Source: an uncultured Ruminococcus sp.
GTDB taxonomy: Bacteria; Bacillota; Clostridia; Oscillospirales; Acutalibacteraceae
DNA: 37,213 bases
Direction of reading: 5' to 3'
NCBI GenBank assembly: GCA_964407485.1
Contig: CAYOVQ010000001.1
Span: forward strand, 1-37,213
This document shows positions 2,743-21,529 of this stretch, one piece after another (within the stretch, counting starts at the first letter, position 1; the number at the start of each line of letters is the position of its first letter). The position numbers were made by a program, and so were the translations under genes. The notes below the pieces were generated by a model, which was not told where the DNA came from, searched no databases, and saw nothing but the letters and a program-made list of their open reading frames with translations.

Positions 2743-4209
2743 ATGAAAAAAGTTCTCGCTTTTGACTTTGGTGCTTCAAGCGGTCGCGCTATGCTTGCTT
2801 CCCTTGAAGACGGCAAAATAGTAATGAAAGAAATTCACCGTTTCGCTAACGACCCTGTCGTAGTTCGCGGCAGTATGTATTGGGACGTGCTTCGTCTTTT
2901 CTTTGAGATTAAGTCAGGCATTACCAAGGCTGTAAACGAGGGCGGTTTTGACGCTATCAGTATTGATACCTGGGGTGTTGATTTTGGACTTCTTGACAAA
3001 AACGGCAGACTGCTCGCCAACCCCTATCACTACCGTGACAGCAGAACACACTCTATACCCGAAAAGGTTTTTGAGATTATCTCTAAAGATGAACTTTACA
3101 GCAAAGCGGGTTTGCAGTTTATACACTTTAACACCATTTATCAACTTATGTACCTCAAATTCAACGAGTCAGATATGCTCGAACGCGCTGACAAAATGCT
3201 TATGATGCCCGACTTGTTCGGTTATATGCTCACAGGTGAAATGAAAGAAGAGGCAACCATCGCTTCTACCTCTAACCTGCTTAATCCCTACACAAAGGAT
3301 TGGAATTTTGAACTTATTGAGCAGTTAGGTTTGCCAAAATCTATTTTTGCGCCAATTACAAAACCAGGCAGCGTTTATGGGCTTCTTTCGGATGAAATCT
3401 GCGAAGAATTAGGTTGCGATAAGGTGCCTGTAATTGCAGTTGCATCTCACGATACTGCGTCGGCTGTTGCGGCAACACCCAGTGAGCGCGACGACTTTGT
3501 ATACATTAGTTGCGGCACATGGAGTCTTTTTGGTATTGAGAGTAAAACACCGATTTTGACCGCAGAGGCTGCAAAGGCAGACTTTACCAACGAGGGCGGA
3601 TTCGAAGATACGACACGTTTTCTTAAAAATATTATGGGTCTGTGGCTTATTCAGGAGTCACGCCGTCAGTTCCGCCGCGAAGGTGAAGAAGTTGGCTTTG
3701 ATGTGCTTGAAAAAGAGGCTCTTGCCTCCGAACCATTTAAATGCTTTATAAATGTAGACGACCCTGCATTTGAACCCGCGGGCAACCTGCCACGCAGAGT
3801 AAAAGAATACTGTGAAAAAACAGGTCAATACGTACCGCAAACACGCGGTGAGGTTATGCGCTGTATCTACCAAAGCCTTGCTATGAAATACAAGTACACC
3901 TTTAATGCGTTGAATAATATAGGTGAAAAGAAATACCACAGCATCAATATTTTAGGCGGCGGTATTAAAGATAGACTGCTTTGCCAGATGACAAGTGACG
4001 CTTGCAACGTGCCTGTTTTGGCAGGACCTACCGAAGCCACCGTTATGGGTAACATAGGTGTCGCATTTAACGCCTTGGGTGAGATTGCCGACTTTACCGA
4101 ACTGCGTAAGGTTGTATCAAACTCGACCGAAATCAAAACCTATACACCAAATGATAACGACGCATGGGAAAAGGCTTATGTTGATTATCTTAAGGCTACA
4201 GGACTTTAA
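2743..4209 (+). CDS. rhaB: Rhamnulokinase (FGGY carbohydrate kinase family)
   Basis: ATG at 2743 follows RBS GGAGGG. Motif blocks FDFGASSGRAML, EIHRF, IDTWGVDFGLLD, YRDSRT, GLQFIHFNTIYQL, MMPDLFGYMLTG, ASHDTASAV, CGTWSLFG and LKNIMGLWLIQE line up with E. coli RhaB as I remember it. Confidence 0.88.
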   Translation: MKKVLAFDFGASSGRAMLASLEDGKIVMKEIHRFANDPVVVRGSMYWDVLRLFFEIKSGITKAVNEGGFDAISIDTWGVDFGLLDKNGRLLANPYHYRDSRTHSIPEKVFEIISKDELYSKAGLQFIHFNTIYQLMYLKFNESDMLERADKMLMMPDLFGYMLTGEMKEEATIASTSNLLNPYTKDWNFELIEQLGLPKSIFAPITKPGSVYGLLSDEICEELGCDKVPVIAVASHDTASAVAATPSERDDFVYISCGTWSLFGIESKTPILTAEAAKADFTNEGGFEDTTRFLKNIMGLWLIQESRRQFRREGEEVGFDVLEKEALASEPFKCFINVDDPAFEPAGNLPRRVKEYCEKTGQYVPQTRGEVMRCIYQSLAMKYKYTFNALNNIGEKKYHSINILGGGIKDRLLCQMTSDACNVPVLAGPTEATVMGNIGVAFNALGEIADFTELRKVVSNSTEIKTYTPNDNDAWEKAYVDYLKATGL

Positions 4210-10562: not shown

Positions 10563-13500
10563 TTACAGTTCAATATTCCAACCGTTAATGTAACGCATAA
10601 GCAGTGCACAGTCTTTGTTGTTTGTTTTACCGTCAGCATACACATCTGCGGCATCAACTACTATTTCAACATTCCAACCGTTAATGTATTGCATAAGTAA
10701 AACGAAATCTTTATTGTTTATATAACCGTCATCGTTAACATCGCCAACAATATACTCTATTATTTCGACACCGGCATTCACTTTTTCAAACTCTACGTTT
10801 TTTATATCCTCATTAAACACATTTTCGGGATCATAATCGACTGCAATTTGGGTGCTGCTTACAGAAACATCATCCTTAACTCTAAAGGTAATTACTGCTA
10901 CTGTACCATTGGTTTGGTTATTGGGCTTAAGAGAATCTACCCAGTTTATCGAAAACGGATTATTACTTTCAGGTGAATATTCAATATTGGCAAACACACC
11001 TTCTTTGACTGATACAAATTCAATAACATCTGAATCATATTCAATGTCAAATTTGAATGATATTATACCAGGGTTATTATTTATAGCAATAACCACGTCA
11101 AAGGTTTCACCTATTTTAGCAGTACCGCTTGTTACAGTAACAACAGGGGTAGATTCGTCTACAACTTTTTGTGATACTGTAACGGTTAGTGTTGTTGTTG
11201 CATCGGCATAATTTACGGTAACAACCTTTTGACCCACCGTAGCAGAATCTAATTTGCTTGTAGTATAGGTTGTTATTTCACCGCTTTCACCGTCGTTGTA
11301 ATGCGCAATAACAATCATACCCCACTTGTCAAACTCTTCGCCTATATAATACGCTGTTTTGTTGGGCATTTTGTCTATTGTGATTTTTTCAACCGTGCGT
11401 ACTGTATTACACTCGTTACAGAATGTATCGTATATATCATCATAAATGTGACCTGATGTTTCACGCTCAGCACCACACTCATTACAACTGATATCACAGT
11501 TATTATCATATGTATGGGTTACAACAGTTCGTACATAGTCACACACATTACAAATAGTATCGCATTCGTTATCGTATGTATGGGTTATATCACGCAACCT
11601 ACCGCATATATTGCAGGTGGTATCACAACTGTTAAAGTATTTATGACCTGATATCTGTCTTACACCGCCGCAAACGTTGCAGTCTGCATCGCAGCCGTCG
11701 TCATACACATGGTCCGCAACGGTGCGAATTTCTCTACAAATATTGCACTGTGTATCGCAATCGTTGTCATAGGCATGTACAACGATTCTTATAATCCCAC
11801 ACTCGTTACAGGTATCATCACAGGAATTATAATATGTGTGTTCGGGCACTGTGCGCATAAATCCACAAATATTACACTGTGCATCACATCCACTGTCGTA
11901 TTTGTGAGTAATAATTCTTGTAACACCGCACTCATTACAAGAGGTATCACAATTGTTGGTATACGTATGGCTTGCAGGTGTACGGGTAAATCCGCAAATA
12001 TCACATTGTGCATCACAAAGACTGCTATATTTATGATATATGGTACGAATATTGCCACACTCGTTACAAGACGTATCACAATCGCTTGTATAGATATGCT
12101 CCGCAGGAGTGCGAACATCACCGCAAATATTACAATTTGAATCACAGTTATTATTGTATATATGATTTGACGGAACACGCACAAAATCACAAACATTACA
12201 AATAGCATCACAAGCGTTATCATAACTATGGGTTATACTTCTTATAGCCCCACACTCGTTACAGGATACATCGCAATTGTTGTCATATATGTGTGCCGAA
12301 GGGTTTCTGGTATATCCGCAAACATTGCACTGTGTATCACAATTACTGGTATATAAGTGTGTTATTGTTCGTACATAACCGCATTCGTTACAGGATGTAT
12401 CGCAATCGTTTGTATAGATATGGTCTGACGGTGTGCGCAACTCACCACAAACGTTACAAGAATTATCGCAATTGTCGTAATACGTATGGTTGCCCACCTC
12501 ACGTATATCGCCGCAAATATTGCAGGTTTTATCACAATCATTGTTGTATTTATGTTCGGTAGTTCTTGTGTCACCGCATTTATTACATTCGGTATCACAG
12601 GCATTATCGTATATATGCTCTGCAGGCACACGGTTGGTACCGCATATATCACAACTTGCATCGCAGTCGCTTGTATACGTATGTGTTGTAACCCTAACAT
12701 CACCGCACTCATTACAGGACGCATCACATTCGTTAGTGTAGATATGTTCAGACGTTGTGCGTATATCGCCGCAAATGTTACAACTTGCATCACAAGCGTT
12801 ATAATATACGTGGTCGGGCACCTGTCTTGCAGCATCACATTCGTTGCAAGAAGCATCACAGGCATTGTCATAAATATGGTCTGACGGTGTGCGTATATCG
12901 CCGCATACGTTACAATCTGCATCACAGGCGTTGTCATAGGTATGGGTAATTTTTCTTACTGCACCGCATTCGTTACAGGTTGTGTCACAAGTGTTGTCAT
13001 AAATATGGTCGGGCACTTCACGTACCGTGCCGCATATATTGCAAACTGTATCACAATCGTTATCATAAGCACAGTTTACGTCGCGCAAATCACCGCATAT
13101 GTTACAACTTTTATCACAGTCATAACTATAAACGTGGTCAGGCACCTGGCGAACTATGTTGCAATCATTACAAACCGTATCACAAATGTTATAGTATGTG
13201 TGGGGTGCTTGTCTTACCGCGCCACATTCATTGCAGGTATCGTCGCAAACATTATCATAAATGTGCGGAATATCGTTATTTGCTATCAAATCAACAATTT
13301 GCTCTTTAGAAACCTGCTCAATCGATAAGAATTTCGGCACATCGATATTGTTGTAAGATACAATGCTTCTTACACCGCCAACTATCTTTGCATAGGTATT
13401 TGTATCAAGTGCAATATAGTCTATACCCTCTATCTCATTTTCAGACGGTACATAGTCTTCACCGGTAAAAATTTCGGCATCCATTTCATCGGCATATGGC

Positions 13501-15305
13501 CACACAATATATGACAAAACCTCATAACGACCATCGCCCAAATCCTTGTAGCAACTATATTCAAACCGCACAGTCGGTCCTCCCCAGCCGCCTATGTAAC
13601 TACTGTAAATACCGTTATTATAGAAATCCTGTGAATGTAAATCATTTAAAAGTTTATCGGTTTTTTCAAAATATTTAAAGGCTATGTTTTCGTAATCGGC
13701 TTCACTTACAGTAAACTCATATGCATCTTCAGGCGCATACTGCTCAAGTTCACATGAATGAAGCAGATATTCGTTTACAAAAGCCGCGTTCGGACCGCCC
13801 GCTTCTGTAAAAAAGTAGTTATCCCCGTAATACATCCAACCGAGGTTGTCAAATGACTGCTTGAACAGGTTATCATAAATATATACGGGCGCCGCCATTT
13901 CTGCACCGCATTCATTACATACTCTGTCGCAAGCGTTGTCATAAGTATGCTCGGGCACTGTGCGCGTCCATTCGCAAGTATTACAACTGCTGTCACAAAT
14001 ACCGTCATAATCGTGCTCTGACTTACAGATGTTATAATGCCAGGTAGCATTCACGAAATAGGTATTGTAATCGGAAATCGATATATTTTTTTTGTTTGCC
14101 GCTGTACCTGTATACCAAACGTTTTTAAGACCAGTACACTCATCGAAAGCATAGTCGGCTATACTTGTAACACTGTCAGGGATAACAATATCAGTAAGTC
14201 CGCTACAATAAAAAGCATAACTTCCTATAGTCTTAACACTCTCAGGCAAAACTATAGTTTTTAGCCTTATACAGTTAAAAAATGCTCTACCACCTATTGA
14301 CATAACCGTATCGGGTAAATTAACTTTTTCAAGGCGCAAGCAACGTGAAAACACATTGTACGGTACCTCAGTAATACCGTACGGTATTGTTACTTCGGTA
14401 ATATCCGTACCGTAAAAAGCCTGCTGACCAATATACGTAACACCGTCAGGGATGTTTATTTCAGTGATTGAAGTATCATAAAAAGCATAATCACCGATAT
14501 ATGTAACACTATCGGGTACAGTTATACTTGTTATAGATGAACAAGAATAAAAAGCGTTATCGCTTATTCTTTTAAGTCCGTCGCTGATAACAACCGTTTT
14601 TAAACTGCTTGGTACATATTTATACGAGCTACCAAAAATATATGAAAAATCGGTATTAGTATTAGTGATAGCACTTCTCCCTACAAACGGTACGGTGATT
14701 TTTTCAAGATTGTCACAGTCAGCAAGTGCGCCTAGGGCAATTGAAGTAACCGCGTCACCCACAACAAGTTCCGTTAATCTGGTGCAACCTTCAAACATAT
14801 AATCATCAATGCCACACGCTGCATATATCTCGGCTTTTTGAAGCGCACTGCACCCACCAAACAGACCGTAAGACGTGTTTGAAGTAATGCCTGTAACGCT
14901 GCTTGGTATTTTTATACTTGTAAGTTTTATACAATTATAAAAAGCGCCATAGCCTATGGTTGTAACTTGATTTGGCACCGTTATGCTTGTAACGGCATAG
15001 CAACTTGCAAAAGCAAGATTGCCTATCGTTGTGACAGTGTTGGGAATTGTTATAGCGGTTAGTTGCATACAACCACTAAAAGCATTGTCGCCTATTGCCT
15101 TAACGGTATAGCCGCCTAATGTTGACGGAATGGCGATATCGCCACTTACAGATGTGTCAAAATCGGTTATTGTCGCAGCATTTTCTGATACAGTATACGT
15201 ATAATAACCCTCGGTTGCAGCACTGACAGTAAACGTAAATGCACCCAACGGCACCACTGATACAAGAAGAACTATTGCTAATAAAGTTGATAACAATTTT
15301 TTCAT
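10563..15305 (-). CDS. 1580-aa secreted multidomain protein: signal peptide, ~14 BspA-type LRRs, 2 Cys-modules, ~205-aa unknown domain, 29 Cys-modules, Ig-like domain, cohesin, dockerin
   Basis: Single uninterrupted ORF. Signal peptide is MKKLLSTLLAIVLLVSVVPLGAFTFTVSA. RBS AAAGGGG overlaps the stop of the upstream gene. Domain evidence is given in the sub-features. Confidence 0.92.
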   Translation of the reverse strand: MKKLLSTLLAIVLLVSVVPLGAFTFTVSAATEGYYTYTVSENAATITDFDTSVSGDIAIPSTLGGYTVKAIGDNAFSGCMQLTAITIPNTVTTIGNLAFASCYAVTSITVPNQVTTIGYGAFYNCIKLTSIKIPSSVTGITSNTSYGLFGGCSALQKAEIYAACGIDDYMFEGCTRLTELVVGDAVTSIALGALADCDNLEKITVPFVGRSAITNTNTDFSYIFGSSYKYVPSSLKTVVISDGLKRISDNAFYSCSSITSITVPDSVTYIGDYAFYDTSITEINIPDGVTYIGQQAFYGTDITEVTIPYGITEVPYNVFSRCLRLEKVNLPDTVMSIGGRAFFNCIRLKTIVLPESVKTIGSYAFYCSGLTDIVIPDSVTSIADYAFDECTGLKNVWYTGTAANKKNISISDYNTYFVNATWHYNICKSEHDYDGICDSSCNTCEWTRTVPEHTYDNACDRVCNECGAEMAAPVYIYDNLFKQSFDNLGWMYYGDNYFFTEAGGPNAAFVNEYLLHSCELEQYAPEDAYEFTVSEADYENIAFKYFEKTDKLLNDLHSQDFYNNGIYSSYIGGWGGPTVRFEYSCYKDLGDGRYEVLSYIVWPYADEMDAEIFTGEDYVPSENEIEGIDYIALDTNTYAKIVGGVRSIVSYNNIDVPKFLSIEQVSKEQIVDLIANNDIPHIYDNVCDDTCNECGAVRQAPHTYYNICDTVCNDCNIVRQVPDHVYSYDCDKSCNICGDLRDVNCAYDNDCDTVCNICGTVREVPDHIYDNTCDTTCNECGAVRKITHTYDNACDADCNVCGDIRTPSDHIYDNACDASCNECDAARQVPDHVYYNACDASCNICGDIRTTSEHIYTNECDASCNECGDVRVTTHTYTSDCDASCDICGTNRVPAEHIYDNACDTECNKCGDTRTTEHKYNNDCDKTCNICGDIREVGNHTYYDNCDNSCNVCGELRTPSDHIYTNDCDTSCNECGYVRTITHLYTSNCDTQCNVCGYTRNPSAHIYDNNCDVSCNECGAIRSITHSYDNACDAICNVCDFVRVPSNHIYNNNCDSNCNICGDVRTPAEHIYTSDCDTSCNECGNIRTIYHKYSSLCDAQCDICGFTRTPASHTYTNNCDTSCNECGVTRIITHKYDSGCDAQCNICGFMRTVPEHTYYNSCDDTCNECGIIRIVVHAYDNDCDTQCNICREIRTVADHVYDDGCDADCNVCGGVRQISGHKYFNSCDTTCNICGRLRDITHTYDNECDTICNVCDYVRTVVTHTYDNNCDISCNECGAERETSGHIYDDIYDTFCNECNTVRTVEKITIDKMPNKTAYYIGEEFDKWGMIVIAHYNDGESGEITTYTTSKLDSATVGQKVVTVNYADATTTLTVTVSQKVVDESTPVVTVTSGTAKIGETFDVVIAINNNPGIISFKFDIEYDSDVIEFVSVKEGVFANIEYSPESNNPFSINWVDSLKPNNQTNGTVAVITFRVKDDVSVSSTQIAVDYDPENVFNEDIKNVEFEKVNAGVEIIEYIVGDVNDDGYINNKDFVLLMQYINGWNVEIVVDAADVYADGKTNNKDCALLMRYINGWNIEL
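10566..10745 (-). other. Dockerin module (C-terminal 60 aa)
   Basis: Two Ca-binding loop/helix segments: GDVNDDGYINNKDFVLLMQYINGW and ADVYADGKTNNKDCALLMRYINGW. Confidence 0.85.
10746..11155 (-). other. Cohesin-like domain
   Basis: ~135 aa: VTVTSGTAKIGETFDVVIAINNNPGIISFKFDIEYDSDVIEFVSV...NGTVAVITFRVKDD. This is the typical cohesin beta-sandwich sequence pattern, judged by eye. Confidence 0.65.
11156..11386 (-). other. Bacterial Ig-like domain
   Basis: ITIDKMPNKTAYYIGEEFDKWGMIVIAHYNDGESGEIT...GQKVVTVNYADATTTLTVTV resembles the Big-type 'bacterial Ig-like' domains that flank surface-protein modules. Confidence 0.5.
11387..13265 (-). repeat. 29 tandem in-frame 21/22-aa modules H-x-Y-x3-C-D-x2-C-N-x-C-G-x2-R
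   Basis: Hand-parsed from the translation: 11 units of 21 aa and 18 of 22 aa, 627 aa in total. Conservation is H 28/29, Y 29/29, Cys1 28/29, D 29/29, Cys2 29/29, Cys3 29/29, R 29/29. Confidence 0.92.
13887..14018 (-). repeat. Two additional copies of the same Cys module, separated from the main array
   Basis: EHDYDGICDSSCNTCEWTRTVPE + HTYDNACDRVCNECGAEMAAP. Confidence 0.85.
14105..15173 (-). repeat. ~14 BspA-type leucine-rich repeats (LRR_5-like)
   Basis: Recurrent ~23-aa units such as IPNTVTTIGNLAFASCYAVTSIT, VPDSVTYIGDYAFYDTSITEIN and LPESVKTIGSYAFYCSGLTDIV. Confidence 0.8.
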
Positions 15306-15318
15306 TATAACTACCCCT

Positions 15319-15768
15319 TTAAATGATATTTTTATTTATTAAATCAAGCATATATTTTGCCTGTTGTTTGTTCAATTCATCCTGCATTTGTTCTAACTCT
15401 TGATTGCCTTGAAAATCAGAATTTTCTACTTTTAATGCCATTTTTGTAAACCAGTATATTTCATCAGATTTTGCCTGACTTTTAACAAAATCAATCGTTC
15501 CTCGTATGGTATGTGTTGCACACACGCACATATAACAATTCTTAAAATTTGTAAAATCTTCTGCTAAAAATTTTTGACTGTCACCTCTGGTAGTAATGCC
15601 GATTTTTTTGTTTTTATATTCTAATAAATACCAACGGTCCATCTTTTCTTGTCCGACGCGCCCAGTACCTCTAAGTATTGCGCCTTCAAGTAACAATAAC
15701 CCTACTAAACGGGTTATTGTTTTTGTTTTTCCAACCTTTTCTTTACCCTGTAATGCAATTATTTTCAT
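15319..15768 (-). CDS. Small (149-aa) P-loop NTPase of unknown family
   Basis: ATG at 15768 is preceded by AGAGGG. Walker A is GKEKVGKT in MKIIALQGKEKVGKTKTI. No clear hhhhD Walker B is visible. The stop overlaps the RBS of the 1580-aa gene, whose ATG is 13 nt downstream. Confidence 0.7.
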   Translation of the reverse strand: MKIIALQGKEKVGKTKTITRLVGLLLLEGAILRGTGRVGQEKMDRWYLLEYKNKKIGITTRGDSQKFLAEDFTNFKNCYMCVCATHTIRGTIDFVKSQAKSDEIYWFTKMALKVENSDFQGNQELEQMQDELNKQQAKYMLDLINKNII

Positions 15769-15800
15769 TTTAACCCTCTGTTTTAAAATAAATTCTCTTA

Positions 15801-15877
15801 TTTTGTTGAACACCATTCACCAAAATTAGTGCAATTATAGCATAAAATTAAAAAAAAGTAAATAGTATTCAACAAAA
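15801..15877. promoter_or_regulatory. Pair of 10-bp perfect inverted repeats flanking the divergent promoter (candidate operator pair)
   Basis: TTTTGTTGAA (15801-15810) and TTCAACAAAA (15868-15877) are exact reverse complements. They bracket the promoter at 15834..15862. Confidence 0.35.
15834..15862 (-). promoter_or_regulatory. Sigma-A-type promoter for the P-loop / giant-protein operon
   Basis: Minus strand: TTTACT (15862-15857), 17 nt, TATAAT (15839-15834), with extended -10 TGc. Confidence 0.4.
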
Positions 15878-15893: not shown

Positions 15894-16151
15894 ATGTTTA
15901 AAATCAAAGCCGCTGATGGCACCAACAACCTTTGCGGACGGCGGATTGCCGAAATACGCAAGGGTAAAAAACTTTCTCAACGAAAGTTGGCAACCAGAAT
16001 GCAACTGCTGGGGTTTGATGTAGACCATTACTTTATCCGTCGGGTCGAAAACGGTGAGAGGTTTGTGACCGACATTGATTTGGTAATTTTTGCGCGCGCA
16101 CTTGATGTACCTATTACGGAAATGCTATCAGCGGAGGATGCGAAGCTTTAA
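15894..16151 (+). CDS. XRE-family helix-turn-helix transcriptional regulator (85 aa)
   Basis: RIAEIRKGKKLSQRKLATRMQL...IRRVENGER is a classic HTH_3 pattern. RBS GAGGGA lies 7 nt upstream of the ATG. Confidence 0.85.
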   Translation: MFKIKAADGTNNLCGRRIAEIRKGKKLSQRKLATRMQLLGFDVDHYFIRRVENGERFVTDIDLVIFARALDVPITEMLSAEDAKL

Positions 16152-16209
16152 ATACAATAATGTCCCCTCATCCTTTTAGCAATTATATCCACACAAATAG
16201 TAAAAGTCT

Positions 16210-16224
16210 TATGCTGACAGCATA
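16210..16224. promoter_or_regulatory. 15-bp palindrome abutting the -35 box of the kinase-operon promoter (operator or weak terminator)
   Basis: TATGCTG-A-CAGCATA has 7-bp arms. It is followed directly by TTGTAT (the -35) and a T-run. Confidence 0.3.
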
Positions 16225-16225
16225 G

Positions 16226-16254
16226 TTGTATTTTTGGGTCGTTTGTGGTATGAT
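16226..16254 (+). promoter_or_regulatory. Sigma-A-type promoter for the HTH / zinc-ribbon-LRR / kinase operon
   Basis: TTGTAT (16226-16231), 17 nt, TATGAT (16249-16254), with extended -10 TGg. Confidence 0.4.
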
Positions 16255-16278
16255 TAAGTAAACGAAAGGGTGACGGCA

Positions 16279-16701
16279 ATGCAAAAGGATACATCAAAAA
16301 TCGTAGAAGAGTTGGGACTTTGCCCCGATTTTACAACCTTTTATAATGAGAATAAGCAATATTTGATTACAGACACCTTGTCAGAAATGTTAGACCGATT
16401 ACTTGCTGAAAGGGGCTTAAAAAAATCTGCCGTTATAAAGGCGGCAGAGATGTCTGAGGTGTACGGATATCAGATTTTTTCAGGTCTTCGTGTACCCGAA
16501 CGCAACAAGCTTTTATGTCTGGCTGTTGCAATGAAGCTTAATATTGACGAGATGCAAAACTTGCTTAAAACGGCGGGTTATTCACCGCTTTATGTAAAGT
16601 TGCCCTTTGACAGCATTGTGCTTTACGGGGTATGTAAAGGTTTGTCAGTAATTGAAATCAACGAGATATTATACGAATACGGTTTAGATACTTTGGGGTA
16701 A
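16279..16701 (+). CDS. HTH-like (XRE-superfamily) protein, ~140 aa
   Basis: ATG at 16279 lies 8 nt after GAAAGGG; the ORF track starts at GTG 16270. LKKSAVIKAAEMSEVYGYQIFSGLRVPERNKLLCLAVAMKL looks like an HTH_3-type helix-turn-helix plus helix 4/5. Confidence 0.6.
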   Translation: MQKDTSKIVEELGLCPDFTTFYNENKQYLITDTLSEMLDRLLAERGLKKSAVIKAAEMSEVYGYQIFSGLRVPERNKLLCLAVAMKLNIDEMQNLLKTAGYSPLYVKLPFDSIVLYGVCKGLSVIEINEILYEYGLDTLG

Positions 16702-16709
16702 ATAAGAGA

Positions 16710-17735
16710 ATGAAAAAATGTCCGTTTTGTAAAGCTGATATAGAGGACAACGCCCGCTTTTGCCTTTACTGTATGTCCTCTTTGCAGGAAAAACAAAAGA
16801 TAGAAAACCAACAAAAAGATAACAAAAGGTGGCTGTATATACTTGCCGCCTTTTTATTGCTTGTGTTTGCTTTTGCTATAACAATATTTGCTTTAAGCAA
16901 AAATGGGGCGAATAACAATTCAAGCGAAAACTCTATGTATAGCGAAACATTACCCCTAAACAACTCGTCATATACAAGCGATATTTTATCAAGCAATAAC
17001 ACAAGTGATGACGTAAGTAAAAACACTTCAACTGATAATTCGTCACAAGATAAAACTCCACACAATAGTAGTAGTGATAAAACAAATCCCGACGATAACA
17101 GCGATACAACTACCACCACAAGCCATTCGCAAAGCAGTACTATCAGCAGTTCATCAAGCGATACAACCACATCAACTGTGTCACCCTCACAGCCAAGTGA
17201 AAGCGACAATACCCAAACTTCAGAAGAACAAAACAGCAGTCAAGAAACCATTATGCCAGTCGAGGCGGTTTATATCTACCGTGATGCTGTTGCCGCCGAT
17301 TGCTACACCGCGGGTAATATTCCCGCGCAACCAATTGAAGATGTTATTGTTATCACGGGTGTGTCTTGTGCGGCAAGTGACGGAATATACAATATACCCG
17401 AAGAAATTGACGGAAAAAGGGTTGGAGCAATTATGCCATCCGCCTTTTCCGATACTGCTATCAGCAGCACCGTCAAAAAGGTTGTAGTACCATCAACGGT
17501 AAAAACTATTTGGCAAAACGCTTTTTCTAACTGTTACAACTTGACCGATATTTATTTGTGCGGTGCAACTATAAATATCTTTGAATCAGCATTTGCTGAT
17601 GTGTCAAATCGCACAGGAACGTTAACCATACATTGCGCTCGTGACTGTAAAACCTTTGCCTTTTACTATTACAGAAATATAGTCGGTAATTATGATGCTC
17701 TATACCAAGAATGGAACGGCGGCGAGATTGAATGA
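16710..17735 (+). CDS. Membrane protein: N-terminal zinc ribbon, one TM helix, Ser/Thr/Asn-rich linker, C-terminal BspA-type LRR domain
   Basis: Zinc ribbon is CPFC-x10-CLYC and the TM helix is WLYILAAFLLLVFAFAITIFAL. A low-complexity S/T/N/D stretch spans ~aa 66-180. LRR units include IPEEIDGKRVGAIMPSAFSDTAISSTVKKVV and VPSTVKTIWQNAFSNCYNLTDIY. Confidence 0.8.
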   Translation: MKKCPFCKADIEDNARFCLYCMSSLQEKQKIENQQKDNKRWLYILAAFLLLVFAFAITIFALSKNGANNNSSENSMYSETLPLNNSSYTSDILSSNNTSDDVSKNTSTDNSSQDKTPHNSSSDKTNPDDNSDTTTTTSHSQSSTISSSSSDTTTSTVSPSQPSESDNTQTSEEQNSSQETIMPVEAVYIYRDAVAADCYTAGNIPAQPIEDVIVITGVSCAASDGIYNIPEEIDGKRVGAIMPSAFSDTAISSTVKKVVVPSTVKTIWQNAFSNCYNLTDIYLCGATINIFESAFADVSNRTGTLTIHCARDCKTFAFYYYRNIVGNYDALYQEWNGGEIE

Positions 17736-18448
17736 GTTATTTAAACACAACCCGCGAACAATACATAGAAAAACTGTTTGAAACCTATCGATTGGTATGT
17801 GTACTTGCCGACAAAAATGACTGCAAAGTCTTGCGTTTAAGACACAAACAATTAAATAAAGATTTGGTGCTGCGCAGTTTCCCAAAAGTTGTTGCGGCAT
17901 ACGAAATACTATGCAATATACGATCAAAAAATCTGCCCGAAATATATGATTCTATAACCCTCGATGACGGACAAATAGTTTTAGAAGAGTTTATTAGCGG
18001 TATGACGGTTGACGATGTTATGAAAGGCGGTAACTACCGATACCGTGGAGCAAAGCGGGTGCTGACATCGGTTTGTAACGCGCTGGACATCCTGCACAAA
18101 AACAACATAGTTCATCGTGATATTAAACCCGAAAATATAATAATTTCAGATGACAGCAGGGTTGTTTTAATTGACCTTAACATATCGCGTCAGATGTCCT
18201 ACAGCAAAAAAGACACCGTTATAATGGGCACGGTAGGTTATGCCTCACCCGAACAGTTGGGTGTTGCGGGTAGTGATACGCGAACAGACATTTATGCTAT
18301 GGGTGTGCTGCTTAACGTGATGCTTACAGGCAAGCACCCAAGTGAAACGTTAGCGCGCGGAAGGTCAGGCAAAATTGTTAAAAAATGCACTGATATAAGC
18401 CCAGACAACCGCTATCAGACAGCCGAAAAATTAGCTGAAGCATTATAA
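17732..18448 (+). CDS. Hanks-type Ser/Thr protein kinase catalytic domain only (238 aa), atypical N-lobe
   Basis: ATGA overlap with the upstream gene. HRDIKPEN (aa 128-135), DLN in place of DFG (148-150), GTVGYASPE (166-174). No TM or sensor domain. Confidence 0.85.
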   Translation: MSYLNTTREQYIEKLFETYRLVCVLADKNDCKVLRLRHKQLNKDLVLRSFPKVVAAYEILCNIRSKNLPEIYDSITLDDGQIVLEEFISGMTVDDVMKGGNYRYRGAKRVLTSVCNALDILHKNNIVHRDIKPENIIISDDSRVVLIDLNISRQMSYSKKDTVIMGTVGYASPEQLGVAGSDTRTDIYAMGVLLNVMLTGKHPSETLARGRSGKIVKKCTDISPDNRYQTAEKLAEAL

Positions 18449-18483
18449 AAAGAGCAGACTTGAAACCCAAGTCTGCTCTTTCA
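18447..18483. terminator. Bidirectional intrinsic terminator between the kinase gene and asp23
   Basis: agagcagactt (18451-18461), gaaaccc, aagtctgctct (18469-18479), flanked by AAAA and TTT. Confidence 0.65.
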
Positions 18484-18498
18484 GTTTGTATTTACTCT

Positions 18499-18840
18499 TT
18501 ATTCTGCCTCTGCAAAGTCTATGTCTTCGATGTTTACGTTAACTCTGGTTACGGCGGTGCCTGTCATAGTTTGAATTTTATCCTTAACGTTTTGCTGAAC
18601 TGCCTCGGCTACCTCGCGCATTTTTGCTTTAGCGTCTATGCAGATGTAAACATTAATATCTATCGCGCCGTTAACACTTTCAACCTTAACACCCTTAACA
18701 ACACTTTTGGTTTTGATTGCGCCTTTTAGGTCGATAGCCTTCTTTGCAACACCCTTAACGCCCTCAATCTCACAAGCGGCAAGTTCTGCCATTTTTTCAA
18801 GCACTTCGGTGCTTACGGAAACTTCTGTTCTGTTGTCCAT
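18499..18840 (-). CDS. Asp23/Gls24-family alkaline shock protein
   Basis: 113 aa. ...EVLEKMAELAACEIEGVKGV...VNINIEDIDF is the typical Asp23 pattern, and the gene sits downstream of spoIIIA as in many Firmicutes. Confidence 0.88.
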   Translation of the reverse strand: MDNRTEVSVSTEVLEKMAELAACEIEGVKGVAKKAIDLKGAIKTKSVVKGVKVESVNGAIDINVYICIDAKAKMREVAEAVQQNVKDKIQTMTGTAVTRVNVNIEDIDFAEAE

Positions 18841-18902
18841 TGTTTTTTCCTCCGTATATATAAATTGCTGTTTTGTTATTTGTAAATTATTATTACAAAC
18901 TT

Positions 18903-18931
18903 ATTGTAACATAATTCATATAACTTTGCAA
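18903..18931 (-). promoter_or_regulatory. Sigma-A-type promoter for asp23
   Basis: Minus strand: TTGCAA (18931-18926), 17 nt, TACAAT (18908-18903), with extended -10 TGt. Confidence 0.4.
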
Positions 18932-18933
18932 GA

Positions 18934-19476
18934 TTATTTTACGGTGACAATTTTTATGTTGCTTAAAGGTATTTCGGTCTGGGCGGTGACGATATCCTGT
19001 ATCTGCAGGGTCTGGGCAGTTGTAATACCCTCTGATTTTACAATCACACTTACGTCATTATCGCTTATTATCACTACCGCTTTTTCAAAACCTTTGACTT
19101 TAAGCAGTGTCTCTATATTGTTGGCTTTTTCAATCCTGTTAGCCATATCACTTGTGGCTTTTAAAGCCTGTTCACGTTCCTGTTCGGTAGCATTTGCAGA
19201 TTTTAGTGTTTCCTCTACCAGTTCCTGCGCCTCATCTAATGCTTTTTGGCGGTCACTTTTTGCGGTTTCAAAATAATCGGCCTCGCTTTCTTCTGCTTTA
19301 GCGGCAGTCTGCACAGCCTCGCCGCTTGCCGTGTCGCTATCGCTTACAAAAGTTGCTTCGCCCATATATTTTTCATTAGAAGAAAATTTCATATTAAGCC
19401 ACACCGCCGCGCCCAAAGCCAGCACCATAAGCGCTAACACTACCTGATGTTTTCCAAAGACCTTACCTTTTTTCAT
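18934..19476 (-). CDS. spoIIIAH: Stage III sporulation protein AH
   Basis: Last gene of the operon. It has an N-terminal TM (VVLALMVLALGAAVWL), an acidic/coiled middle, and a C-terminal KGFEKAVVIISDNDVSVIVKSE ring-building-motif-like segment. Confidence 0.8.
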   Translation of the reverse strand: MKKGKVFGKHQVVLALMVLALGAAVWLNMKFSSNEKYMGEATFVSDSDTASGEAVQTAAKAEESEADYFETAKSDRQKALDEAQELVEETLKSANATEQEREQALKATSDMANRIEKANNIETLLKVKGFEKAVVIISDNDVSVIVKSEGITTAQTLQIQDIVTAQTEIPLSNIKIVTVK

Positions 19477-19477
19477 A

Positions 19478-20014
19478 TTACGTTCCTCCTGAAATGTATA
19501 CTCGTTTTGATGTTATATTTAAAGCCGCAGTGACGGCATTTTTTATTTTTTCGGCAGTAAGTTCATAGTCACCGCCTGCGCAGATAATCGCGACGCCGCG
19601 TACTTCGGGCATAATCTCGGTAATAACAAGCGCCTGCTCACCGCCGTCGGCATTTTTGACCGTTATGTAAGACTGTTTTTTGCTCTCACTGCTTTGGTCG
19701 TTTGTCTCGCCTGCAGAACTTGACGTGTCGGTCTCGGCGGCGCTGGCGTAAGAATAGCGTATGCCGCTTTCAAGCGTTATTACAACAGTGGGATTTTTGT
19801 CCCCCGTGATGCTTGTTACTATATCTTTTATATCCTCTTCAAGAAGTTCACAGTACTGCTCTGCCGTATACGTAACGCCGCTTGACGCGTTTTTTTGCGT
19901 CTCGTCACCGTCGCCTGAAAAAAGCGATGATATAAAAATCAGCAGTATACCGCCGATGCCTAAAATGATTAACATTTTTGGATTTTTTGTAAGATTTTTT
20001 ATTTTTTCATTCAT
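19478..20014 (-). CDS. spoIIIAG: Stage III sporulation protein AG
   Basis: N-terminal TM and C-terminal ITEIMPEVRGVAIICAGGD...ITSKRVYI, matching the conserved PEVRGV block of SpoIIIAG. Operon position agrees. Confidence 0.82.
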   Translation of the reverse strand: MNEKIKNLTKNPKMLIILGIGGILLIFISSLFSGDGDETQKNASSGVTYTAEQYCELLEEDIKDIVTSITGDKNPTVVITLESGIRYSYASAAETDTSSSAGETNDQSSESKKQSYITVKNADGGEQALVITEIMPEVRGVAIICAGGDYELTAEKIKNAVTAALNITSKRVYISGGT

Positions 20015-20432
20015 TTATTACATCTACCTCATAACTGTCTGAACCTATTACCGCGTCTATTTTTTGTTGAGACTCGCTTGTGTAAACAGTTACCTTACTT
20101 ATAACTATGCTGCCGTCGTTTAATTTATTAGTGTCTACTATAATTTTTGTAAAATTTATCCCCTCTTGATAAAGCGCCTCGGCAAAAATTGATTGAGCCG
20201 TGACCGCTGTGTTTTGCTCGGTAAGGATTTCGGTAGTATCTGCGCTTTCAAAATAAGAAAAATCGGGTTTTGGCAATGCCACTACGGTACCTATAACACA
20301 ACAAACAAAACACAGGCAAAAAACATATTTCACACTCTGGCTCATACTGCCCGACGGACACAGCATATATAAAAAACCCAGCAGTATACAACTGACGCAA
20401 AAACTGATTATAAAGGAAGAAATATTATTCAT
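20007..20432 (-). CDS. spoIIIAF: Stage III sporulation protein AF
   Basis: 141 aa with two N-terminal TM helices. Position between AE and AG, with overlapping stop/start on both sides. Confidence 0.72.
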   Translation of the reverse strand: MNNISSFIISFCVSCILLGFLYMLCPSGSMSQSVKYVFCLCFVCCVIGTVVALPKPDFSYFESADTTEILTEQNTAVTAQSIFAEALYQEGINFTKIIVDTNKLNDGSIVISKVTVYTSESQQKIDAVIGSDSYEVDVINE

Positions 20433-21529
20433 TTTGTTGACATCACAACCACCGACAGCGCAATTATAAACATACCGCCCACCATTAAAACCACACCCAA
20501 AAGCAGTGACAGCATTGAATCTATCGCGCGCAAAACCCCCGTTATTTTAGAAAGTGAAAAAAGTTCACCCAAAGAGATATTAAGAAGCAACATACACCGC
20601 CATAAAACAAGGTCTATAATAATTGGAAGCAGTGTCACCGCCAATGCCGCAACACCGTATATGCCCACAGAAGATTTAAGCAGCCCCATAGACGTTGAAA
20701 TAGTGGATACCGCTTCGCTTAACACCCCACCTGCCACAGGCACAGAAGTACCTATTATAAATTTTGCAGTGCGCAGTGTAACACTGTCTGCCGCAGAGTT
20801 AACCGCTGTCTGAATGCCTAAAACACCTATAAACAACGTGCCTAAAAGCGACATTATCCACATAGAAATCTTTTTAACGCTTTCTACAATGCCTGAACTG
20901 TTAAGCAGAGGAGACACACCCGAACTGATGCTCAATGCCAGATATCCACCCATAAGCGGCAACACCGCAAAAGACGACACAAACGATACTACCTCTGTAG
21001 CGGCAAGCAACAGCGCGCTCATAGCAGGCGCTGTAACCGTTTTGCCCGAAAGTGCCAATGTTACACTAAAAACAGGCACAAAACTTAACATAAAAGTACT
21101 GCAACCCTTAACCGCATTTACGGCGGCAGATACGCTTTGCCACACATTTGTTGCCGCTACGGCGCTGATTGAAAGCACGGCGGCATAAATTGCCGTTTCA
21201 AATCGGGGTGCCGCACCAAATGCGGTAATAGCCGCCGACACAAAAATAATGCCCGCCACGGCAATACCCGCTACAACAGGTGTTTTAACTCCTCCCGTTA
21301 CAAACTGCCACAAATGTCGCAGTACATTGCCGTTTGTAAGACGGTTCACCCATGTGCTATCGGTTATGTCGATTCCGTTTTCTTCAAAAAAATCGCGAAC
21401 ATCACTGTCAAGGCTATCGTCAAGCGAGTCGGCGCCCACATTTTTAATTTGCGTGGCATAGTTATCCTCGGCGCAAACGGGCAAAGAAAAGATAAAAATT
21501 AATATAACAAATGCGATTATTTTTTTCAT
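20429..21529 (-). CDS. spoIIIAE: Stage III sporulation protein AE (polytopic membrane protein)
   Basis: 366 aa with a signal-like N-terminus followed by multiple TM helices. Operon position agrees. Confidence 0.85.
   Translation of the reverse strand: MKKIIAFVILIFIFSLPVCAEDNYATQIKNVGADSLDDSLDSDVRDFFEENGIDITDSTWVNRLTNGNVLRHLWQFVTGGVKTPVVAGIAVAGIIFVSAAITAFGAAPRFETAIYAAVLSISAVAATNVWQSVSAAVNAVKGCSTFMLSFVPVFSVTLALSGKTVTAPAMSALLLAATEVVSFVSSFAVLPLMGGYLALSISSGVSPLLNSSGIVESVKKISMWIMSLLGTLFIGVLGIQTAVNSAADSVTLRTAKFIIGTSVPVAGGVLSEAVSTISTSMGLLKSSVGIYGVAALAVTLLPIIIDLVLWRCMLLLNISLGELFSLSKITGVLRAIDSMLSLLLGVVLMVGGMFIIALSVVVMSTK

What the first reader, a model, noticed from the sequence alone, without database searches (positions are those of the whole stretch)
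16279..18448. Three-gene operon that looks like a split LRR-receptor / Ser-Thr kinase signalling module
Seen: one predicted promoter (16226..16254) and one terminator (18447..18483) enclose three genes spaced by 8 nt and then by a 4-nt ATGA overlap.
- Gene 1 is a ~140-aa HTH-like protein.
- Gene 2 is a membrane protein with a cytoplasmic CxxC-x10-CxxC zinc ribbon, a single TM helix, a ~115-aa Ser/Thr/Asn-rich linker and an extracellular BspA-type LRR domain.
- Gene 3 is a 238-aa kinase that is only a catalytic domain, with no TM and no PASTA or other sensor.

Established: characterised bacterial Hanks kinases of the PknB/PrkC type carry their own TM and sensor domains. LRR ectodomain + kinase is the logic of plant receptor kinases.

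Inference: here sensor and kinase appear to be separate polypeptides made in fixed stoichiometry. The zinc ribbon is a candidate docking site for the kinase and the HTH protein is the candidate phospho-target or output.

The same LRR type heads the neighbouring 1580-aa protein, so the module may sense or regulate that surface system. I am not aware of a described system with this composition.
Basis: partly seen in the sequence, partly recalled or inferred. Interest (0 to 1): 0.7.

Follow-up and report, generated by a model that had tools for sequence, protein, structure and literature searches.

The report
Conserved regulator, membrane LRR protein, odd kinase
Three tightly packed genes, for a DNA-binding regulator, a membrane protein with an outward-facing leucine-rich-repeat domain and an unusual soluble Ser/Thr kinase, stay together in about 80 gut Clostridia species behind a conserved palindromic DNA site, so this is very likely a real but uncharacterised signalling cassette.

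Summary
The three genes, their 8-nt gap, the 4-nt ATGA overlap, the terminator hairpin and all the domain calls are as described.

The trio keeps its order in essentially all 80 related species genomes fetched (Acutalibacteraceae/Oscillospiraceae MAGs). Its downstream neighbour differs almost everywhere, so it behaves as a self-contained cassette.

New findings:
- **Operator.** A perfect palindrome, TATGCTG-N-CAGCATA (16210-16224), abuts the -35 element. It is exact in 69/80 orthologous loci and is a likely operator for gene 1.
- **Core pair.** Gene 1 belongs to a large family of ~140-aa XRE-type HTH proteins across Clostridia. A kinase of this type lay within the fetched flank, in most loci directly adjacent, in 34/35 non-identical distant loci.
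- **Atypical kinase.** The whole family lacks a glycine-rich loop. The β3 Lys is Arg or His in this clade, and helix αG is missing. HRD, Asn and DFG-Asp are invariant. It resembles the recently catalogued "DYD" bacterial kinase family.
- **Membrane partner.** Relatives often carry their own TM helix and ectodomain, and Zn-ribbon+TM proteins recur nearby.

The split sensor, kinase and regulator reading is plausible and gains comparative support, but no interaction or phosphotransfer is shown. The link to the neighbouring 1580-aa protein is weak. I rate this a new variant of a known kind, interest about 0.6.

The parts
16210..16224 (.). Perfect 15-bp palindrome TATGCTGACAGCATA, the candidate operator of the gene-1 HTH protein. 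Its centre lies about -44 from the inferred transcription start.
   Evidence: It is exact in 69/80 orthologous loci, once per locus in 67 of them (two carry a second copy), 64-135 nt upstream of gene 1. The centre base is free and the flanks have diverged. It is the only match in the window at up to 2 mismatches.
16226..16254 (+). Promoter of the operon: -35 TTGTAT (16226-16231), 17-nt spacer, TGn-extended -10 TATGAT (16249-16254).
   Evidence: The sequence is shown. The register is conserved in 39/69 unique orthologous loci, 38 of them with a TG-extended -10. It is not reported by the consensus scan.
16279..16701 (+). Gene 1: a 140-aa XRE/Cro-C1-type HTH protein with a two-helix N-terminal and a two-helix C-terminal extension. 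Lys3 and Thr5 are invariant (Thr5 codon 16291-16293).
16710..17735 (+). Gene 2: a 341-aa bitopic membrane protein. It has a cytoplasmic CPFC-x10-CLYC zinc ribbon (aa 4-21, nt 16719-16772), a TM helix (aa 41-62, nt 16830-16895), a Ser/Thr/Asn-rich stalk (aa ~63-185) and a C-terminal BspA-type LRR_5 ectodomain (aa ~186-341, nt 17265-17732).
17732..18448 (+). Gene 3: a 238-aa soluble Hanks-fold Ser/Thr kinase with an atypical N-lobe. The β1-β2 turn is LADKNDCKV with no Gly. β3 is Arg48. HRD is at aa 128-130. DFG is D148-L-N150. Asp161 occupies the position of the PknB activation-loop phospho-Thr173. Helix αG is absent.
18449..18481 (+). Intrinsic-terminator-like hairpin closing the operon. It may act in both directions, because the Asp23 gene converges on it.
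15894..16151 (+). Upstream 85-aa XRE (HTH_3) gene. It is an optional companion and may be the local regulator of the divergent surface-protein gene.
   Evidence: Pfam HTH_3 at 8.8e-6. It is present just upstream in 33 of 82 related loci at a median 85% identity.
10563..15305 (-). Divergent 1580-aa secreted protein (LRR_5 x4, Cys-rich CxxC repeats, Big_3, cohesin, dockerin). It is a recurrent but not constant neighbour, and no link to the module has been shown.
   Evidence: Of 58 loci with enough upstream flank, 19 have a divergent protein of 700 aa or more, and 16 of the upstream divergent neighbours share a domain with this protein. There is no operator copy near it.

Best explanation
This is a self-contained, autoregulated three-gene signalling cassette.

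**Gene 1** is an XRE-type DNA-binding regulator. It binds the palindrome TATGCTG-N-CAGCATA just upstream of the operon's -35 element. Because the site always lies upstream of the core promoter, positive control is somewhat more likely than repression.

**Gene 3** is a soluble Hanks-fold Ser/Thr kinase of an atypical, "DYD-like" family. It has no Gly-rich loop and β3 is Arg, His or Lys, but the catalytic loop, the metal-binding Asp and the substrate-binding P+1 loop are all intact. It is the dedicated partner of gene 1. Most likely it phosphorylates gene 1, with the invariant Thr5 as the candidate site, and so changes operator occupancy.

**Gene 2** is a bitopic membrane protein. Its LRR ectodomain, held out on a long Ser/Thr-rich stalk, binds an external or cell-surface ligand. 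Its short cytoplasmic zinc-ribbon tail recruits or regulates the kinase. Functionally it supplies what the TM helix and ectodomain supply in related one-piece kinases.

**Shown:** gene structure, domain identities, conservation of the trio, conservation of the HTH-kinase pair across Clostridia, the conserved operator, and the motif states of the kinase.

**Inferred:** who binds the operator, the direction of signal flow, the zinc ribbon-kinase contact, phosphorylation of Thr5, and catalytic competence.
For: **Operon and linkage.**
- The genes have tight spacing and overlap, one promoter and one terminator.
- The same order is kept in the 80 fetched genomes, while the downstream neighbours fall into 60 clusters out of 68.

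**The HTH-kinase pair is the core.**
- The gene-1 family has 1053 representatives at E<=1e-10, nearly all about 140 aa.
- In 34/35 non-identical distant loci a kinase gene lies within the fetched flank. In most it is adjacent: divergent, convergent or co-directional. Independent gene calls agree.

**Gene 1 binds DNA.**
- Relatives reach HTH_3/HTH_31 at 5e-10.
- The model matches the DdrO N-terminal domain, 434 Cro, P22 c2 and SinR over its HTH core.
- The exact palindrome is conserved whether or not the upstream XRE gene is present.
- It sits 1 nt from the -35 in 39/69 unique loci and about 30 nt further upstream in most of the rest.
- Second copies lie about 75 nt upstream of other genes in L008 and L075.

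**The kinase is probably functional.**
- HRDxKxxN, DFG-Asp and GT..Y[AS]PE are invariant in 75 orthologues.
- The fold matches PknB at TM 0.77.
- β3 Arg/His is never paired with DFG-Gly. It is always paired with D, E, N or another polar residue, while Gly occurs only with Lys. This matches the compensating contact proposed for DYD kinases (PMC12599244).
- Asp replaces the activation-loop phospho-Thr in 128/129 sequences.

**Membrane partner.**
- The zinc ribbon and the TM helix are present in all 82 gene-2 orthologues examined.
- Related kinases carry their own TM helix and ectodomain.
- ZR+TM proteins occur in 10/35 distant loci, against 1 non-gene-2 ORF of that type in 827 kb of the orthologous loci.

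**Candidate phospho-site.** Lys3 and Thr5 are invariant across 67 sequences down to 30% identity, and Thr5 is kept in all distant loci.
Against: - No interaction or phosphorylation could be tested, because no multimer prediction was available.
- Lack of a Gly-rich loop, Arg or His in place of the β3 Lys, and no clear αC Glu would classify the protein as a pseudokinase by the usual rule. K-to-R is a classic kinase-dead change.
- Thr5 is the N-cap of helix 1 in the model, so its invariance could be purely structural.
- The palindrome could be bound by another factor.
- The ZR+TM partner is absent from the fetched flank in 25/35 distant loci, and it also accompanies kinases that already have a TM helix. 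It is therefore not simply the missing half of a split kinase.
- The gene order is the opposite of a fission product.
- The orthologous loci were chosen as the best 80 of 200 by gene-1 similarity. They share ancestry, so the counts are not independent events.
Confidence: 0.5

Rival explanations
1. Non-catalytic switch. Gene 3 is a pseudokinase, or only an ATP-binding protein. It acts as a scaffold that tethers or releases the gene-1 regulator at the membrane through gene 2. This would be partner-sequestration logic like an anti-sigma or anti-repressor, with no phosphotransfer.
For: There is no Gly-rich loop. β3 Lys is R in 55, H in 18 and K in 1 of 75 orthologues. The αC Glu is not clearly conserved and αG is absent. 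The similar DYD family is listed among pseudokinase-rich families (PMC12599244; bioRxiv 10.1101/2025.01.12.632604). Bitopic zinc-ribbon+TM proteins are a common anti-sigma-like architecture (my own knowledge).
Against: HRD-Asp, the catalytic-loop Asn, DFG-Asp, the Ser/Thr-type HRDxKxxN and the GT/SPE substrate loop are all invariant. That is unexpected if catalysis were lost. About half of the wider family keeps the β3 Lys, and Arg is always paired with a polar residue at DFG+2.
Confidence: 0.2
2. Gene 2 is cargo rather than sensor. The HTH-kinase pair is the regulatory unit, and the LRR membrane protein is simply a co-transcribed surface protein (an adhesin or cell-envelope factor) whose expression the pair controls.
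For: The HTH-kinase pair exists without a detectable ZR+TM gene in 25/35 distant loci. LRR_5 proteins are common surface proteins in these genomes and often lie next to the module. The ectodomain and stalk evolve fastest, with median identity 52-55% against 65% for the kinase and 74% for the HTH protein.
Against: The cytoplasmic zinc ribbon is strictly conserved with fixed spacing in all 82 gene-2 orthologues examined. Gene 2 sits between the regulator and the kinase and overlaps the kinase start in the window. ZR+TM proteins with unrelated ectodomains recur near distant pairs in different gene orders. This points to the cytoplasmic and TM module, not the ectodomain, as the conserved partner.
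Confidence: 0.17
3. Toxin-antitoxin or anti-phage defence module of the HipB/HipA or Stk2/PD-T4-6 kind. The XRE protein neutralises and co-represses a toxic kinase.
For: The layout is an XRE protein next to a Ser/Thr kinase with a palindromic operator. PADLOC kinase models (PD-T4-6, mad6, Stk2) hit the kinase domain. Some distant pairs sit beside integrase, resolvase or Mob genes. Flanks of the trio are highly variable, and one MAG has two copies (L023 and L069).
Against: The PADLOC and NCBIfam hits cover only the generic C-lobe and fall far below family cut-offs. The fold is Hanks-type, not HipA-type. No PADLOC model hits gene 1. The window's context is chromosomal housekeeping (spoIIIA, Asp23, tRNA-modifying enzyme). 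The module includes a membrane protein with an ectodomain. It is found in at least 200 species genomes, with identities consistent with vertical descent.
Confidence: 0.08

Closest known systems
"DYD" family of bacterial Ser/Thr (pseudo)kinases (Kannan-lab atlas, bioRxiv 10.1101/2025.01.12.632604; review PMC12599244)
   Same: Both are found in Firmicutes. The β3 Lys is often replaced by Arg (60% in DYD; here R/H in the clade and roughly half K, half R in the wider family). There is no canonical αC Glu. HRD and DFG-Asp are retained. DFG is altered, with an acidic or polar third residue proposed to contact the β3 Arg. Relatives here read DFD or DYD and never combine Arg with Gly. Relatives are membrane-anchored.
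   Different: The window protein reads DLN (DFN in most orthologues), is soluble at 238 aa, and lacks αG. As far as I could read, those papers do not describe loss of the Gly-rich loop. "XRE" and "helix-turn-helix" occur nowhere in either text and "zinc" nowhere in the review, so no such gene partner is described.
PASTA-type Hanks kinases (M. tuberculosis PknB, B. subtilis PrkC, S. pneumoniae StkP)
   Same: This is the best sequence and fold match. [quoted passage not shown]
   Different: There is no TM helix or PASTA domain in the kinase polypeptide, no Gly-rich loop, no β3 Lys, no αG, and Asp replaces the activation-loop phospho-Thr. The NCBIfam PknB_PASTA_kin score is 125 against a cut-off of 450.
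HipB-HipA (XRE antitoxin with a Ser/Thr kinase toxin)
   Same: Both pair an XRE-type HTH protein with a Ser/Thr kinase and place a palindromic operator at their own promoter.
   Different: HipA has a different kinase fold (PI3/4-kinase-like). No toxin-antitoxin behaviour is indicated here. This module includes a membrane LRR protein, and in relatives the pair is mostly divergently transcribed.
Plant LRR receptor kinases, and bacterial membrane-sensor-to-transcription systems such as RsgI/SigI of cellulosome-producing clostridia
   Same: The logic is the same: an extracellular repeat or binding domain, a single TM helix and a cytoplasmic transducer controlling transcription. The genomic setting is also a cohesin/dockerin-bearing organism.
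   Different: This is analogy only. Here the sensor and the kinase are separate polypeptides, the LRR is of the bacterial BspA type, and the output is an XRE protein rather than a sigma factor.
C. difficile CD2148 (atypical STK)
   Same: It is a clostridial Hanks-like kinase without PASTA domains and with degenerate motifs.
   Different: CD2148 lacks the catalytic Asp and Asn and the GT/S and SPE motifs (PMC9674922). All of these are invariant here. It is not the same family.

Membership tests
Hanks-type (ePK-fold) Ser/Thr protein kinase | Pfam Pkinase above the gathering score and a bilobal kinase fold | tested here: met
   PF00069 scores 109.5 bits against a cut-off of 31.7. The AF2 model matches the PknB kinase domain at TM 0.77, E = 4e-14.
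Hanks-type (ePK-fold) Ser/Thr protein kinase | Catalytic loop HRDxKxxN and metal-binding DFG-Asp | tested here: met
   H128, R129, D130, K132, N135 and D148 are invariant in 75 orthologues and in alignment A6 of 56 homologues.
Hanks-type (ePK-fold) Ser/Thr protein kinase | Gly-rich loop GxGxxG | tested here: not met
   It is replaced by L[SA][DE]KN[DE]C[KR]V in the clade and by xLxxSEKxxV in distant relatives, with no conserved Gly.
Hanks-type (ePK-fold) Ser/Thr protein kinase | β3 (VAIK) Lys paired with the αC Glu | tested here: not met
   The window has Arg48. Among the 75 orthologues the position is R in 55, H in 18 and K in 1, and the αC Glu column is not conserved.
PASTA kinase (PknB/PrkC/Stk1) | C-terminal TM helix plus extracellular PASTA repeats | tested here: not met
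   The protein is 238 aa with no hydrophobic segment and no PASTA hit. NF033483 scores 125 bits against a cut-off of 450.
DYD bacterial kinase/pseudokinase family | β3 Lys to Arg with HRD and DFG-Asp retained | tested here: met
   The feature definition is taken from PMC12599244.
DYD bacterial kinase/pseudokinase family | DFG replaced by DYD, with a second Asp | tested here: not met
   The window reads DLN and orthologues read D[FL]N. Many distant relatives read DFD or DYD.
DYD bacterial kinase/pseudokinase family | Assignment by the authors' constraint profile or similarity to their reference sequences (WP_153409036.1, WP_039364684.1) | not testable with these tools
XRE / Cro-C1 HTH transcription regulators | Five-helix HTH_3/HTH_31 domain | tested here: met
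   The window protein alone is sub-threshold (HTH_31 15.8 bits against 27). 17/48 family members hit HTH_31 and 13/48 hit HTH_3, down to 5e-10. The model superposes on the DdrO N-terminal domain at 1.8 A over 66 residues, and on 434 Cro, P22 c2 and SinR.
XRE / Cro-C1 HTH transcription regulators | Sequence-specific binding to a palindromic operator | not testable with these tools
   Only indirect evidence is available: a conserved 15-bp palindrome at the promoter.
BspA-type leucine-rich repeat (LRR_5) proteins | Pfam LRR_5 above the gathering score | tested here: met
   The score is 32.3 bits against 27.7. 34/42 orthologues hit at 1e-3 or better.
HipBA-type kinase toxin-antitoxin | HipA-fold kinase | tested here: not met
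   Pfam, PDB and Foldseek all place gene 3 with Hanks kinases.
Known anti-phage defence systems (PADLOC) | Full-length match to a system-specific model, with the partner genes also matching | tested here: not met
   Only generic kinase-domain hits were found, and nothing hit gene 1.

The most novel reading that the evidence does not exclude
Clostridia possess a widespread, undescribed one-kinase/one-regulator signalling system. A ~140-aa XRE-type regulator with an invariant N-terminal Lys-x-Thr is the dedicated substrate of a Hanks kinase family that works without a glycine-rich loop or a β3 lysine. In Acutalibacteraceae the sensing half is a separate zinc-ribbon/TM/LRR subunit. That would make it a bacterial receptor plus soluble-kinase complex, analogous to eukaryotic receptor/co-receptor kinases.
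Probability: 0.35. Interest if true: 0.75.

Novelty: new variant of a known kind. Interest (0 to 1): 0.6.

Why it matters
- **Dedicated regulator.** Hanks-type kinases in Firmicutes are mostly known as PASTA-domain cell-wall sensors with many substrates. A kinase family that is almost always encoded next to one small XRE regulator would be a rare bacterial case of a Ser/Thr kinase with a dedicated transcription factor, wired like a two-component system.
- **A test of what counts as a pseudokinase.** The family lacks the Gly-rich loop and often the β3 Lys, yet keeps every C-lobe catalytic residue. It is therefore a clean natural test case.
- **Experimental handles.** The conserved operator gives an immediate handle for EMSA, reporter assays and regulon prediction.
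- **Tractable sensing.** The separate LRR subunit offers a way to study how gut Clostridia sense surface or host/dietary ligands.
- **Ecological reach.** The module is present in at least 200 species-level genomes of animal-gut Oscillospirales, and its HTH-kinase core is present in many Lachnospiraceae.

Tried and rejected
- **CD2148.** I tested equivalence with C. difficile CD2148 and rejected it. CD2148 lacks the catalytic Asp and Asn and the GT/SPE motifs.
- **PADLOC and NCBIfam.** These gave only generic kinase-domain hits, and nothing for gene 1.
- **Simple gene fission.** I considered a fission of a kinase-TM-ectodomain gene and rejected it. The gene order is reversed, and ZR+TM partners also accompany kinases that already have a TM helix.
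- **Control of the 1580-aa gene through the operator.** This is not supported. There is a single site in the window at up to 2 mismatches.
- **The upstream 85-aa XRE protein as the operator binder.** This is unlikely. That gene is present in only 33/82 loci, whereas the palindrome is exact in 69/80.
- **Ectodomain homology.** A search for similarity between gene 2's ectodomain and the ectodomains of TM-bearing relatives found none. It found only other LRR_5 proteins, in L163 and L164.
- **Metagenome scan with a very diverse alignment.** This failed because no conserved stretch was available. I repeated it with a narrower alignment.
- **Cluster look-up for taxonomy.** It returned no names.
- **Perfect palindromes upstream of distant gene-1 homologues.** Most loci had none. 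Two had related GCTG-N-CAGC cores (L086, L141), and three carried the exact site elsewhere in the locus (L102, L103, L136).
- **Literature searches** for an XRE, Hanks kinase and zinc-ribbon system found nothing relevant.


Full report
**1. What is in the window**

Mechanical ORF listing gives three co-directional genes:
- Gene 1, 16279..16701, 140 aa. An upstream GTG at 16270 has no ribosome-binding site and does not match the orthologue N-terminus.
- Gene 2, 16710..17735, 341 aa.
- Gene 3, 17732..18448, 238 aa.

The 8-nt spacer after gene 1 and the ATGA overlap between genes 2 and 3 can be read directly from the sequence.

A 14-pair hairpin at 18449..18481 follows gene 3. It folds at -22.7 kcal/mol, z = -6.8 against shuffles.

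The consensus scan misses it because the -35 matches only 3/6. Conservation supports it (section 4).

Domain calls:
- Gene 3 is a Pkinase domain, E = 2.5e-31.
- Gene 2 has CPFC-x10-CLYC at residues 4-21, a hydrophobic helix at 41-62, a Ser/Thr/Asn-rich stretch, and an LRR_5 match above Pfam's cut-off.
- Gene 1 gives only a sub-threshold HTH_31 match on its own.

The surrounding genes are chromosomal housekeeping. Asp23 and spoIIIAH/AF/AE lie downstream, and a HIGH-family nucleotidyltransferase lies upstream. The divergent 1580-aa protein carries LRR_5 x4, Big_3, cohesin and dockerin domains.

**2. The trio is conserved as a unit**

Gene-1 and gene-3 homologues share many contig lengths in the protein database. 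Two look-ups showed the same three genes in unrelated contexts, a ribosomal-protein operon and a GH77/ABC cluster.

A scan of one genome per species with a gene-1 alignment found 200 genomes, and 80 loci were kept. All are Acutalibacteraceae, Oscillospiraceae or "Clostridia" MAGs from animal guts.

In these loci, gene 1 is followed by a zinc-ribbon/TM protein and then the kinase, in the same order. The only exceptions are loci where the contig ends.

Median identity to the window proteins:

| Protein | Median identity |
|---|---|
| Gene 1 (selected to be at least 70%) | 74% |
| Kinase | 65% |
| Gene-2 cytoplasmic/TM part | 55% |
| Gene-2 ectodomain | 52% |

The downstream neighbour differs almost everywhere: 68 neighbours fall into 60 clusters. 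The three genes, with their promoter region, are therefore kept together while everything around them changes. One MAG carries two copies (L023 and L069).

Caveats: the loci share ancestry and were picked by gene-1 similarity, so these are not 80 independent events.

**3. The conserved core is the HTH-kinase pair**

An exhaustive profile search shows gene 1 belongs to a large family. There are 3689 representatives at E<=1e-3 and 1053 at E<=1e-10, nearly all about 140 aa and matched end to end.

Family members reach Pfam HTH_31/HTH_3 at up to 5e-10. Where sources name them, they come from Lachnospiraceae, Lachnospirales, Ruminococcus and Eubacteriales.

A metagenome scan seeded with distant members (about 35-49% identity) returned 80 loci. 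A kinase ORF lies next to the gene-1 homologue in almost all loci with enough flank. Usually it is divergent with a 30-230 nt gap, and sometimes co-directional.

After removing identical gene-1 sequences and short contigs, 34 of 35 loci have a kinase gene within the fetched flank, in most cases directly adjacent. Independent gene calls with precomputed Pfam annotations agree.

These kinases are 233-579 aa. The longer ones have a TM helix at about residue 220-260, followed by varied extracytoplasmic regions or polytopic tails.

**4. A conserved operator**

The window has a perfect palindrome, TATGCTGACAGCATA, at 16210-16224, one base before the -35.

- The same 7+1+7 palindrome is the top inverted repeat upstream of gene 1 in nearly all orthologous loci.
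- The exact pattern TATGCTGNCAGCATA is present upstream of gene 1 in 69/80 orthologous loci. Two of them (L008, L075) carry a second copy.
- The centre base varies freely, and the flanks have diverged.
- It is present whether or not the upstream 85-aa XRE gene is present (33/82 loci). This points to gene 1 as the binder.

In 39/69 unique loci the best promoter has its -35 exactly 1 nt after the palindrome (TTGAAA, TTGACA or TTGTAT), and 38/39 of these have a TG-extended -10. In most others the -35 lies about 30 nt further downstream.

The site centre is thus near -44 or near -74, always upstream of the core promoter. By inference this fits activation at least as well as repression.

In the window there is no second site even with two mismatches. 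Second copies in L008 and L075 lie about 75 nt upstream of other neighbouring genes. The exact site also occurs in three distant loci (L102, L103, L136).

**5. The kinase is atypical**

PDB sequence matches cover only the C-lobe, residues 83-203. Aligned to PknB, 75 orthologues show the following:
- No Gly-rich loop. The sequence is L[SA][DE]KN[DE]C[KR]V.
- The β3 Lys is replaced by Arg (55), His (18) or, rarely, kept as Lys (1).
- The αC Glu column is poorly conserved.
- DFG reads D[FL]N.

In contrast, HRDxKxxN, the DFG Asp, the GT..Y[AS]PE loop, the αF Asp and the αH-I Arg are invariant or nearly so.

The distant, gene-1-associated kinases also all lack the Gly-rich loop. They split roughly evenly between β3 Lys and Arg.

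Across 129 sequences, DFG-Gly occurs only with β3 Lys (11 cases). β3 Arg or His is always paired with Asp, Glu, Asn or another polar residue. Asp occupies the position of PknB phospho-Thr173 in 128/129.

The AF2 model (pLDDT 85) has a normal bilobal fold with a tight β1-β2 turn, a short αC, a low-confidence activation loop and no αG. Its best structural match is the PknB kinase domain, TM 0.77.

The literature describes a "DYD" family in Firmicutes and Actinobacteria with K-to-R, no αC Glu, retained HRD and DFG-Asp, and a second Asp proposed to bridge the β3 Arg. AF3 predicts ATP binding for that family.

The present family looks like, or sits close to, DYD. I could not test membership, and the window protein itself reads DLN and is soluble.

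C. difficile CD2148 is a different case, since it lacks the catalytic Asp and Asn.

My reading is that the protein most likely binds ATP in a non-canonical way and is probably catalytic, but a non-catalytic role is a serious rival.

**6. Gene 1 structure**

The AF2 model is confident (pLDDT 93.7) and has nine helices. The central five superpose on Cro/C1-type HTH domains. These include the DdrO N-terminal domain (1.8 A over 66 residues), 434 Cro, P22 c2, SinR and R-M controller proteins. No whole-chain match was found.

Lys3 and Thr5 are invariant across 67 sequences down to 30% identity. Thr5 is kept in all distant loci.

Thr5 is a candidate phospho-acceptor, by inference only. It is also the N-cap of helix 1 in the model, so a purely structural role is possible.

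**7. Gene 2 and the "split receptor" idea**

In all 82 gene-2 orthologues examined the four Cys keep the same 18-residue motif, and the TM helix sits at about residue 42-62.

The stalk varies from 21 to 272 residues and is 49% Ser, Thr and Asn. The C-terminal domain hits LRR_5 in 34/42 orthologues.

A profile of the zinc-ribbon+TM part finds similar small membrane proteins next to distant HTH-kinase pairs in several gene orders. By a simple motif and hydrophobicity rule, 10/35 distant loci have one. The same rule finds 1 non-gene-2 ORF in 827 kb of the orthologous loci. This background is rough, because it comes from different genomes.

Both lineages with short soluble kinases have such a protein nearby (L096 type and L103). 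However, so do some kinases that already have a TM helix.

The ectodomains are unrelated. The gene order here is the reverse of a fission product.

The membrane protein is therefore best seen as a recurrent accessory subunit, not a broken-off half of the kinase.

**8. The neighbouring surface protein**

Of 58 orthologous loci with at least 2.5 kb of upstream flank, 19 have a divergent protein of 700 aa or more, most with a signal peptide or N-terminal anchor. Sixteen of the upstream divergent neighbours share LRR_5, Cys-repeat or cohesin/dockerin parts with the window's 1580-aa protein.

Other recurrent upstream neighbours are a 390-aa Band_7_1+zinc-ribbon protein and a coiled protein of about 365 aa. 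The adjacency is enriched but not constant, and no operator copy lies near the gene in the window.

**9. Verdict**

This is a real, conserved and apparently uncharacterised signalling cassette.

| Claim | My confidence |
|---|---|
| The three genes are functionally linked | about 0.9 |
| Gene 1 is the DNA-binding output acting at the palindrome | about 0.7 |
| The kinase acts on gene 1 | about 0.5 |
| Gene 2 is the sensor that docks the kinase through its zinc ribbon | about 0.4 |

It is a new variant of Hanks-kinase signalling rather than a new category. The literature library held no description of this composition.

Noticed in passing
window 10563..15305 (-): A 1580-aa secreted protein combines four LRR_5 blocks, about 30 tandem Cys-rich units of the D..C[ND].CG type, a Big_3 domain, a cohesin domain and a dockerin domain in one chain. 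Having cohesin and dockerin in the same polypeptide could allow self-assembly or chaining.
   Followed up: partly
window 15319..15816 (-): A 165-aa ORF lies between the large surface-protein gene and the XRE gene. It has a Walker-A-like GKEKVGKT motif and no Pfam family. Weak relatives (36-40% identity) occur upstream of the trio in only two other loci (L037, L053).
   Followed up: no
window 16160..16205, and the same position in orthologous loci: A conserved CCC(T)C(A)TCC...ATTATA stretch lies 25-45 nt upstream of the palindrome. In loci such as L002 it coincides with the RBS and -10 of a divergent 85-aa DUF6809 gene. The window has no such ORF, so its conservation there is unexplained.
   Followed up: partly
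L002 4462-4495, L050 and other loci of the second promoter class: A 14-bp-arm inverted repeat, GCCGTGCTTTGTCA-N5-TGACAAAGCACGGC, lies between the palindrome and gene 1 in one subclade. Its right arm contains a TTGACA -35. It could be a second operator or a leader hairpin.
   Followed up: no
L008 4436-4450; L075 5291-5305: Second exact copies of TATGCTGNCAGCATA lie about 75 nt upstream of neighbouring genes, a 291-aa protein in L008 and a 382-aa coiled/TM protein with a Cys-rich C-terminus in L075. This hints at a small regulon beyond autoregulation.
   Followed up: partly
L023 and L069 (both from MAG RGIG3004): One genome carries two diverged copies of the whole trio (gene-1 identity 78% and 72% to the window). 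The cassette can therefore be duplicated.
   Followed up: no
L163-L168: Some distant HTH-kinase pairs lie next to integrase (rve), transposase, resolvase and Mob_Pre genes. L163 also has a Zn_Ribbon_1+LRR_5 protein and LRR_5/Flg_new proteins within 5 kb.
   Followed up: partly
L096 200..3555 (-): In the lineage with a 233-aa soluble kinase, a run of four small membrane proteins, ending in a 342-aa zinc-ribbon/TM protein, lies further along the same strand as the kinase. A separate 111-aa HTH_3-like ORF lies on the opposite strand between the kinase and this run (3750..4085).
   Followed up: no
window 18499..21529 (-): An Asp23-family gene and the spoIIIAH, AG(?), AF and AE genes lie directly downstream. 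The organism is therefore a spore-former, and the trio lies in an ordinary chromosomal context.
   Followed up: yes
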